Shown here piece by piece: positions 537 to 661 of a DNA stretch of 6,293 bases. Source of the DNA: a virus. Lineage: Duplodnaviria > Heunggongvirae > Uroviricota > Caudoviricetes. The notes below the pieces were generated by a model. That model searched no databases. It was not told the DNA's origin and saw nothing but the letters and a program-made list of their open reading frames with translations. The DNA lies in IMG/VR virus record IMGVR_UViG_2548876950_000009; one strand, 5' to 3'. Positions within the stretch are counted from its first letter, which is position 1. Each line of letters begins with the position of its first letter. A program made the position numbers and the translations under genes.

Positions 537-560
537 TAATAATTCTCAACTGTCTGAGGG

Positions 561-622
561 GAGGGGCGGGTCAAATCCCTGTGACCTGACGTCTTCCGGA
601 CTGCCCGCCCCATCGTTTTTTT
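561..622 (+). terminator. GC-rich inverted repeat plus T-tract; candidate intrinsic terminator and/or cos-region element
   Basis: GGGGCGGG (563-570) and CCCGCCCC (604-611) are perfect 8-bp inverted repeats separated by 33 nt, followed by a T7 run (616-622). The spacer holds short palindromes GACGTC and TCCGGA. The loop is large for a canonical terminator. Confidence 0.35.
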
Positions 623-661
623 ATACCCGCGAAAAATGAAATTTAACCAGGAGTGCCGCAT

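What the first reader, a model, noticed from the sequence alone, without database searches (positions are those of the whole stretch)
537..661. Candidate cos region and terminator between the HNH endonuclease and terS
In HK97-like cos phages the HNH endonuclease gene and the terminase genes flank the cohesive end site, and the HNH protein has been reported to assist terminase-mediated cos cleavage. This 125-nt intergenic region contains a perfect 8-bp GC-rich inverted repeat (GGGGCGGG/CCCGCCCC) around a 33-nt spacer with short palindromes, followed by a T7 tract. It could hold the terminase cleavage or binding site, a terminator separating the upstream genes from the late operon, or both. The exact cos position cannot be determined from sequence alone.
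Basis: partly seen in the sequence, partly recalled or inferred. Interest (0 to 1): 0.5.

Follow-up and report, generated by a model that had tools for sequence, protein, structure and literature searches.

The report
Known phage cos site, precisely placed
The gap between the HNH and small-terminase genes holds the DNA-packaging cut site (cos) of an SfV/phiP27-type, HK97-like prophage, and its 10-base sticky end was already mapped by experiment in near-identical Shigella phages, so the finding is correct but ordinary.

Summary
There is a perfect 8-bp inverted repeat at 563-570/604-611, a 33-nt spacer and a T7 run at 616-622, all in the 125-nt gap between the HNH gene and terS.

The cos reading is right and can be made exact by homology. 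TGCCCGCCCC (602-611, which is TG plus the right arm of the repeat) is identical to the cohesive end mapped on SfI virion DNA. The record ends or annotated cos sites of SfI, phiP27, EPP-1, phiE125 and HK97 all fall at the position aligned to 611|612.

A gap-free alignment of 76 distinct relatives shows three conserved blocks:
- a G-box plus TCAAATC (558-577), always 34 nt from the cut, also in HK97;
- GAC plus the overhang (599-611);
- TTTTTTA-ACCCGCGAAA (616-642), which lies where HK97 small terminase binds.

The inverted repeat itself does not covary. It appears to be a by-product of a G-rich box and a C-rich overhang. Conservation does not support a terminator, although the local hairpin plus U7 cannot be excluded.

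The element is a remnant. Its terL carries a 12-bp deletion that creates a stop codon, and IS1203 ends flank the window.

Verdict: already known, low interest. The only fresh lead is the unexplained upstream G-box shared across different small-terminase families.

The parts
1..54 (-). Terminal 54 nt of an IS1203/IS629 (IS3-family) element. It marks the left boundary of the prophage remnant.
   Evidence: 100% identical to one end of the IS1203 copy in E. coli MA11, L180 3024-3077.
186..536 (+). HNH endonuclease gene (116 aa), the gp74-like accessory nuclease of HK97-type packaging. It appears intact here.
   Evidence: Pfam PF01844, E 2.5e-15. 38% identity over 65 aa to HK97 gp74, E 2e-9. Same length as the SfI HNH CDS.
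558..577 (+). It is a conserved upstream cos subsite. A cosQ-like or nuclease-docking role is inferred, not shown.
   Evidence: Near-maximal information content across 76 distinct relatives. The box ends exactly 34 nt before the cut in the window, SfI, HK97, EPP-1, phiE125 and phiP27. It is also present in mEp235 and F1055, which have different TerS proteins.
578..598 (+). Spacer of variable sequence but fixed length. The palindromes GACGTC and TCCGGA are not conserved.
   Evidence: Low information content, with no insertions or deletions in 76 sequences.
599..601 (+). GAC, the left half-site flanking the overhang. The inferred bottom-strand nick is at 601|602.
   Evidence: A600 in 73/76 and C601 in 69/76 relatives. 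GAC immediately precedes the 10-nt end in SfI, HK97, phiE125 and phiP27.
602..611 (+). Cohesive end TGCCCGCCCC, a 10-nt overhang inferred to be 3'-protruding.
   Evidence: Identical to the 10-nt gap found by run-off sequencing of SfI virion DNA (PMC3636060). The SfI record ends here and the EPP-1, phiE125 and HK97 records end at the aligned position. phiP27 annotates the aligned 10 nt as 'cos-site'. HK97 has a 10-nt 3' overhang.
612..614 (+). ATC (GTC in many relatives), the right half-site. The inferred top-strand nick is at 611|612, so 612 is the first base of the packaged left end.
   Evidence: T613 in 53/76 and C614 in 57/76 relatives, giving a partial GAC-N10-GTC two-fold symmetry.
616..642 (+). 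Block C: TTTTTTTAT-ACCCGCGAAAAATGAAAT. This is the probable small-terminase binding site (cosB-like).
   Evidence: ACCCGCGAAA is almost invariant in 76 relatives whose TerS is only 49-99% identical. The ACCCG plus A/T-tract lies at +14 to +25, against +18 to +30 in HK97, where +15 to +29 is the mapped TerS site (PMC11331095). Block C changes together with TerS in F1055 and mEp235.
649..653 (+). AGGAG, the ribosome-binding site of terS.
   Evidence: Read directly from the sequence, 8 nt before the ATG at 662.
662..1156 (+). terS, small terminase of the P27 family (164 aa).
1153..2874 (+). terL, the large terminase (ATPase plus nuclease domains). It is inactivated by a 12-bp deletion that creates an in-frame TAG at 2473-2475.
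   Evidence: Pfam PF03354 and PF20441, split over two ORFs. The translation reads ...DYR*AKAAN. Alignment to SfV shows the missing ACATCCTCGAGG.
6241..6293 (+). The other IS1203/IS629 end. It marks the right boundary of the remnant.
   Evidence: 100% identical to L180 1768-1820.

Best explanation
Region 537-661 is the cos site of an SfV/SfI/phiP27-type, HK97-like cos phage, preserved in an IS-flanked prophage remnant.

Inferred mechanism, by homology:
- On concatemeric DNA the P27-family small terminase binds block C (TTTTTTA-ACCCGCGAAAAAT, 616-642), about 14-30 bp to the right of the cut.
- Large terminase, helped by the adjacent HNH protein, makes two nicks 10 nt apart, at 611|612 on the top strand and 601|602 on the bottom strand. 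The nicks lie between partly symmetric GAC/RTC half-sites.
- This releases 10-nt cohesive ends of sequence TGCCCGCCCC, probably 3'-protruding.
- Packaging then runs rightward into terS.
- The conserved G-box plus TCAAATC, 34 nt to the left of the cut, is a third subsite that enters the capsid last. Its position matches that of lambda cosQ, and it is shared with HK97 although the TerS differs. It therefore more probably serves TerL/HNH or the termination step.

The 8-bp inverted repeat is a by-product of the G-box and the C-rich overhang.

What is shown: the identity and position of the cohesive end in relatives, the conservation of the three blocks, and the absence of stem covariation.

What is inferred: which protein binds which block, the polarity of the overhang, and whether this copy is still used. 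Its own terL is broken.
For: - Gene module and families.
- From 595 onward the window is 100% identical to SfV over 206 nt.
- SfI virion-end sequencing gave TGCCCGCCCC, which is window 602-611.
- The record ends of SfI, EPP-1, phiE125 and HK97, and the phiP27 'cos-site' feature, coincide at 611|612 after 'GAC plus 10 nt'.
- A gap-free alignment of 76 distinct relatives from Enterobacterales, Pseudomonas and Caballeronia shows three high-information blocks and fixed spacing.
- In HK97 the TerS site is mapped to +15..+29, with an essential G:C pair and an A-tract. HK97 also has a 10-nt 3' overhang, and its HNH protein gp74 stimulates cleavage.
- The window has ACCCGCGAAAAA at +14..+25.
- The TerS model resembles the HK97 TerS fold.
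- The inverted repeat does not covary.
Against: - No virion ends have been mapped for this element itself, and it cannot package on its own. Its terL is truncated and IS ends lie on both sides.
- The 3' polarity is inferred from the 'gap' in the SfI run-off reads and from HK97. It is not stated for SfI.
- P27-family TerS shows no sequence or profile similarity to HK97 gp1, and the fold match is moderate (Foldseek not significant). The assignment of TerS to block C therefore rests on analogy and on the co-variation of block C with TerS type in only a few cases. A mosaic junction at cos would explain those cases equally well.
- No binding partner of the G-box is known.
- The original SfV cos paper could not be read.
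Confidence: 0.88

Rival explanations
1. The hairpin plus U7 is a working intrinsic transcription terminator, alone or in addition to cos. It would stop non-antiterminated transcription coming from the lysis/HNH side before the head genes.
For: In this sequence the stem extends to 560-561/613-614, leaving only a G before U7. Its energy is -26.9 kcal/mol, z -2.4. Some Xenorhabdus relatives have their own short hairpin directly followed by T7 at the same place, with compensatory changes. A hairpin before the T-run therefore recurs in some lineages.
Against: - The consensus terminator scan did not call it; the loop is 33 nt.
- There is no covariation of the stem: family-wide, a sequence's own arms pair 4.34/8 against 4.46/8 for arms from different sequences, and RNAalifold finds no consensus structure.
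- Within Enterobacteriaceae 84.7% of cells pair, against 84.1% in shuffles, and the central pairs are broken in 8-11 of 17 sequences.
- The T-run is part of the conserved block C and shrinks to T5, 6-7 nt from the C-box, in ST64B, phiP27, EPP-1 and others.
- HNH and terS lie on the same strand within one late gene block.
Confidence: 0.15
2. The inverted repeat is itself the functional DNA element, for example a cruciform or a pair of symmetric binding sites that the terminase/HNH complex recognises as a repeat.
For: The repeat is perfect in the window, SfV, SfI, phiP27 and a few others, and one arm is the cleavage site.
Against: The repeat is not maintained in the family. Only 4 of 76 sequences have 8/8 pairs and the mode is 4/8. 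Pairing within a sequence is no better than pairing arms from different sequences (permutation p about 0.17). HK97 keeps the G-box and the spacing, but its overhang CGCCGCCAAA is not complementary to the box. The G-box is better conserved than the overhang.
Confidence: 0.05
3. In this genome the site is an inert relic. The sequence is an intact cos, but nothing cuts it, because the remnant has lost a working terminase and most of the phage.
For: terL has a premature TAG caused by a 12-bp deletion. IS1203 ends lie at both window ends. Relatives in O157:H7 have IS1203 inside the HNH gene.
Against: The cos core is still 100% identical to SfV. A co-resident or infecting SfV-like phage could supply terminase in trans. 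Such phages are common: 1376 of 5426 E. coli genomes carry this terL region.
Confidence: 0.45

Closest known systems
cos sites of Shigella phages SfV, SfI, SfII and SfIV (SfI ends mapped: Sun et al. 2013, PMC3636060)
   Same: The sequence is the same. From 595 onward the window is 100% identical to SfV, and the 10-nt end TGCCCGCCCC is identical. The HNH-cos-terS-terL order and the protein families are also the same.
   Different: Position 612 is A here and in SfV, but G in SfI. The window copy sits in an IS-flanked remnant with a truncated terL.
cos of Stx2e phage phiP27 (record AJ298298, misc_feature 'cos-site') and P27-family small terminases
   Same: The annotated 10-nt cos-site CGCCCGCCCC aligns exactly with 602-611. 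The G-box, TCAAATC, GAC and ACCCGCGAAA blocks and the spacings are the same, and TerS belongs to TIGR01558.
   Different: The flanking DNA is about 72% identical. The first overhang base is C rather than T, and the tail of block C reads AAATTAAAAAT.
HK97 cos with gp1 TerS, gp2 TerL and gp74 HNH (PMC11331095, PMC9410871)
   Same: - The G-run plus TCAAATC ends 34 nt before the cut.
- GAC immediately precedes a 10-nt GC-rich end.
- An ACCCG plus A/T-tract motif lies downstream, where TerS binds.
- The HNH gene lies next to cos.
- The HNH protein is homologous.
- The TerS fold is probably shared.

   Different: HK97 gp1 has no detectable sequence similarity to the P27-family TerS. ACCCG lies at +18 rather than +14. 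The overhang is CGCCGCCAAA and there is no inverted repeat. The HK97 intergenic region is much longer.
Lambda cos (cosQ-cosN-cosB)
   Same: The three-part order is the same: an upstream termination-side element, a nicking site with partial two-fold symmetry, and a downstream small-terminase site next to the terS gene. This comparison rests on established knowledge of lambda.
   Different: Lambda makes 12-nt 5' overhangs, needs no HNH protein, uses gpNu1 and IHF, and has no similar sequence. No IHF-like site was found in 537-661.

Membership tests
HK97-type (3'-overhang) cos site of the SfV/phiP27 group | Lies between an HNH endonuclease gene and terS/terL on the same strand | tested here: met
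   HNH 186-536, terS 662-1156 and terL 1153 onward, all on the + strand.
HK97-type (3'-overhang) cos site of the SfV/phiP27 group | Contains the experimentally defined cohesive-end sequence of the group at the homologous position | tested here: met
   TGCCCGCCCC at 602-611 equals the SfI end. It aligns with the phiP27 'cos-site' and with the record termini of SfI, EPP-1, phiE125 and HK97.
HK97-type (3'-overhang) cos site of the SfV/phiP27 group | The conserved flanking blocks (G-box/TCAAATC, GAC, TTTTTA-ACCCGCGAAA) are present at fixed spacing | tested here: met
   Gap-free alignment of 76 relatives. The box-to-cut distance is 34 nt and ACCCG lies at +14.
HK97-type (3'-overhang) cos site of the SfV/phiP27 group | Virion DNA of this element ends here with 10-nt 3' overhangs | not testable with these tools
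   This needs virion DNA. Polarity is inferred from the gap in the SfI run-off reads and from HK97.
HK97-type (3'-overhang) cos site of the SfV/phiP27 group | A cognate functional terminase is encoded alongside | tested here: not met
   terS and HNH appear intact, but terL has a premature TAG at 2473-2475 caused by a 12-bp deletion. The site belongs to the family by sequence, but the packaging system of this copy is defective.
Rho-independent (intrinsic) terminator | GC-rich stem with a short loop, immediately followed by a U-tract | tested here: inconclusive
   There is a GC-rich stem and a U7 run 1 nt after the extended stem. The loop is a 33-nt structured insert, and the consensus scan did not call the site.
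Rho-independent (intrinsic) terminator | The stem is maintained by compensatory changes in relatives | tested here: not met
   pairing equals the shuffled and cross-sequence controls, and the central pairs are broken in many relatives.
Known structured RNA family (Rfam) | Match to a covariance model | tested here: not met
   No hit in 537-661 even at E up to 10.
HK97 gp1-type small-terminase:DNA recognition (works like, not membership) | TerS homologous to HK97 gp1, binding a G:C plus A-tract site about 15-29 bp from the cut | tested here: inconclusive

The most novel reading that the evidence does not exclude
The G-box plus TCAAATC element may be an uncharacterised third cos subsite of the whole HK97-like packaging class. 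It lies exactly 34 nt upstream of the cut in HK97, SfV/SfI, phiP27, phiE125 and EPP-1. It is also present, at a hand-counted 34 nt from the predicted cut, in mEp235, and in F1055, both of which have a different small terminase. It would act as a docking or measuring site for the HNH/TerL nuclease, or as a cosQ-like termination signal, rather than as a TerS site. A secondary possibility is that the intact cos in this IS-flanked remnant lets a related helper phage start packaging host DNA from position 612.
Probability: 0.35. Interest if true: 0.45.

Novelty: already known. Interest (0 to 1): 0.2.

Why it matters
For this window it matters little. It confirms that the region is the published cos of SfV-type phages and places the cut to the base.

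The comparative by-product has some use. HK97 is now the structural model for cos packaging, yet only its TerS site (+15..+29) is defined. A second conserved element, at fixed distance on the other side of the cut and shared across different TerS families, gives a concrete and cheap target for the open question of how TerL and the HNH protein place two nicks 10 nt apart.

The result also illustrates that a striking GC-rich inverted repeat followed by a T-run is not necessarily a terminator.

Tried and rejected
- **Rfam:** an E-value-threshold search of 1-1200 found nothing in the region.
- **Promoter and terminator scan:** no call in 537-661.
- **IHF consensus:** no site in the region, and the window-wide count equals chance.
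- **Inverted repeat as a conserved structure:** rejected by own-versus-cross pairing, duplex energies, RNAalifold and the count of structure pairs.
- **Viral-contig scan with a TerS alignment:** it returned only relatives of 99% identity or more, useless for footprinting. The genome-contig scan gave the needed diversity.
- repeats the comparison with the real HK97 gp74.
- **Original SfV genome paper (PMC134923):** not held. The SfV cos statement is therefore second-hand, through the SfI, SfII and SfIV papers.
- **cf-PICI satellite instead of a phage:** considered and rejected. The gene order is phage-type (hnh-terS-terL-portal-protease-capsid), and full-length relatives have lysis genes upstream and tail genes downstream.

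Full report
**1. Observation**

The window carries, all on the + strand:
- an HNH gene (186-536);
- a 125-nt gap (537-661);
- terS (662-1156);
- terL (1153 onward);
- portal, prohead protease and major capsid genes.

The perfect 8-bp inverted repeat GGGGCGGG/CCCGCCCC lies at 563-570/604-611 with a 33-nt spacer. The palindromes GACGTC and TCCGGA lie in the spacer, and the T7 run is at 616-622.

The repeat alone is unremarkable. 6.4% of dinucleotide-preserving shuffles of the same 125 nt contain an equally long perfect repeat, and the window holds eight such repeats. The 125 nt as a whole fold no better than shuffles (z -0.64). The 65-nt core folds well (-26.9 kcal/mol, z -2.4). No Rfam family matches, and the consensus terminator scan does not call the site.

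**2. What it is**

BLAST against phage records shows that the window belongs to the SfV/SfI/SfII/SfIV, ST64B and phiP27 group. Several linear GenBank records start inside the region:
- SfV and SfIV at window 595;
- SfI at 612;
- SfII at 537.

The SfI paper reports run-off sequencing of virion DNA ends. Compared with the prophage, the reads showed a 10-nt gap, 5'-TGCCCGCCCC-3'. The authors took this as the cohesive end, and it matches the cos postulated for SfV (PMC3636060). The SfII and SfIV papers state that the same cos is used.

From 595 onward the window is 100% identical to SfV over 206 nt.

Independent records agree:
- phiP27 annotates the aligned decamer CGCCCGCCCC as 'cos-site'.
- The termini of the Edwardsiella phage EPP-1, Burkholderia phage phiE125 and HK97 records fall at the same aligned position, each after 'GAC (TAC in EPP-1) plus 10 nt'.

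The cos site is therefore here. The top-strand nick is at 611|612 and the bottom-strand nick at 601|602.

A gap, rather than an overlap, between the two run-off reads is what 3' overhangs produce. This is my inference. HK97 is documented to have 10-nt 3' overhangs.

**3. Anatomy from comparison**

A scan of one genome per species with a TerS profile gave 80 loci with 49-99% TerS identity, from Enterobacterales, Pseudomonas and Caballeronia. Anchoring on one motif aligns 76 distinct upstream regions over about 95 nt without a single gap. Three blocks stand out.

- **Block A (558-577): GGGGAGGGGCGGG plus TCAAATC.** Its end lies exactly 34 nt from the cut in the window, SfI, phiP27, EPP-1, phiE125 and HK97. 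It is also present in mEp235 and F1055.
- **Block B (599-611): GAC plus the overhang.** A600 and C601 are nearly invariant. Many sequences have GTC or ATC at 612-614, which gives a partial GAC-N10-GTC two-fold symmetry around the staggered nicks.
- **Block C (616-642): TTTTTTA-ACCCGCGAAAAATGAAAT.** ACCCGCGAAA is almost invariant.

The spacer 578-598 is fixed in length but free in sequence, so its palindromes are incidental.

**4. How it probably works**

In HK97 the small terminase binds a 15-bp site at +15..+29 from the cut. That site has an essential G:C pair at position 21 and an A-tract, and the HNH protein gp74 stimulates terminase cleavage (PMC11331095, PMC9410871, PMC13595911). The HK97 left end reads ...CTAACCCGATTTTTTT (ACCCG at +18). 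The window reads ATACCCGCGAAAAAT (ACCCG at +14).

The window TerS belongs to the P27 family (PF05119, TIGR01558). It shows no sequence or profile similarity to HK97 gp1.

The most conserved part of TerS, the basic N-terminal residues 6-36, is predicted to be disordered. This recalls the DNA-reading N-terminal arm of HK97 TerS.

In F1055 and mEp235, blocks A and B are kept while block C and TerS are both different. This fits block C being the TerS site, but a mosaic junction at cos would give the same picture.

My reading is as follows:
- Block C is the cosB-like TerS site.
- Block B is the cosN-like nicking site, cut by TerL with HNH.
- Block A is a cosQ-like or nuclease-docking element on the end that is packaged last.

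Only the cut position and the conservation are shown. The protein assignments are inferred.

**5. The inverted repeat and the terminator**

Across the family the two arms do not covary:
- In the fixed register, a sequence's own arms form 4.34 of 8 Watson-Crick pairs, against 4.46 for arms taken from different sequences.
- The best perfect stems average 5.08 against 4.99 bp.
- Duplex energies are -18.6 against -18.4 kcal/mol (permutation p about 0.17).
- RNAalifold finds no consensus structure for the whole set or for Pseudomonas. It finds only a weak structure for Enterobacteriaceae.
- Within Enterobacteriaceae 84.7% of cells pair, against 84.1% after shuffling partners, and the central pairs are broken in 8-11 of 17 sequences.
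- HK97 keeps the box and the spacing but has a non-complementary overhang.

The repeat is therefore a by-product of a G-rich box and a C-rich sticky end.

The T-run is part of block C and shrinks to T5, several nucleotides away from the C-box, in many relatives. A terminator is thus not a conserved feature. It cannot be excluded for this clade, because the local stem extends to leave only G plus U7. Some Xenorhabdus relatives have evolved their own short hairpin plus T7 at the same spot.

**6. State of this copy**

The terL gene lacks 12 bp (ACATCCTCGAGG) relative to SfV, which creates an in-frame TAG at 2473-2475. Window 1-54 and 6241-6293 are opposite ends of IS1203/IS629. The element is therefore an IS-flanked remnant that cannot cut its own cos. 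Only a related helper phage could use the site.

**7. Verdict**

The cos interpretation is correct and already published for essentially the same sequence. The terminator interpretation is unsupported.

Novelty: already known. Interest is low.

The one point that may merit follow-up is the conserved upstream G-box/TCAAATC at a fixed 34-nt distance, shared across HK97-like phages with different small terminases. I found no description of it in the papers I could read.

Noticed in passing
window 2473-2475 (terL 1153-2874): terL is interrupted by an in-frame TAG. The stop is created by a 12-bp deletion (ACATCCTCGAGG) relative to SfV, so YILE is lost and the reading becomes DYR*AKAAN. The frame is otherwise intact, which suggests a recent inactivation.
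   Followed up: yes
window 1-54 and 6241-6293: Both ends of the window are 100% identical to opposite ends of IS1203/IS629. The head-gene module is therefore an IS-bracketed prophage fragment.
   Followed up: partly
L180 (E. coli MA11, NZ_CP040314.1) 1637-3300: In O157:H7-type relatives the same prophage has IS1203 inserted inside the HNH gene while terL is intact. Different copies of this phage have been disabled at different packaging genes.
   Followed up: partly
L125, L127-L133 (Xenorhabdus spp.), aligned to window 590-622: These relatives carry a short canonical hairpin immediately followed by T6-T7 that overlaps the predicted cut site. An example is GCCCCAAGG-GACTGCCA-CCTTGGGGC-TTTTTTT in L130. 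Compensatory changes occur between species (L130 GCCCC/GGGGC against L131 GACCC/GGGTC). This looks like a real terminator or DNA hairpin in that clade.
   Followed up: partly
L144-L146 (Phytopseudomonas and Pseudomonas sp. PA15), aligned to window 599-611: The overhang position holds a G-rich sequence (AACGACGGGGGGAG) instead of the usual C-rich one, while the G-box and ACCCGCGAAA are kept. The core may be inverted or replaced.
   Followed up: no
L015 (Salmonella phage F1055) and L183/L184 (phage mEp235): Blocks A and B (G-box, GAC plus overhang) match the window type, but the downstream motif and the small terminase are different. This indicates a recombination junction at, or right after, the cos cut.
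   Followed up: partly
window 662-800 (TerS residues 1-45): The N-terminal 45 residues are the most conserved part of the P27-family TerS ([21 protein letters not shown]), yet they are predicted to be disordered (pLDDT below 55). They are a candidate DNA-reading arm.
   Followed up: partly
window 6109-6157: Two overlapping terminator-like hairpins with T-runs lie just after the major capsid gene stop at 6083. This is the only strong + strand terminator call in the window.
   Followed up: no
L099 (JAEWTL010000102.1, labelled 'Bacillota bacterium' MAG): A 5.6-kb contig in a Bacillota metagenome bin carries a TerS 99% identical to the window's and the identical cos. It is probably a mis-binned enterobacterial phage contig.
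   Followed up: no
window 2871-3032: A small 53-aa ORF rich in hydrophobic residues lies between terL and the portal gene. It matches an annotated 162-nt hypothetical gene at the same place in E. coli MA11.
   Followed up: no
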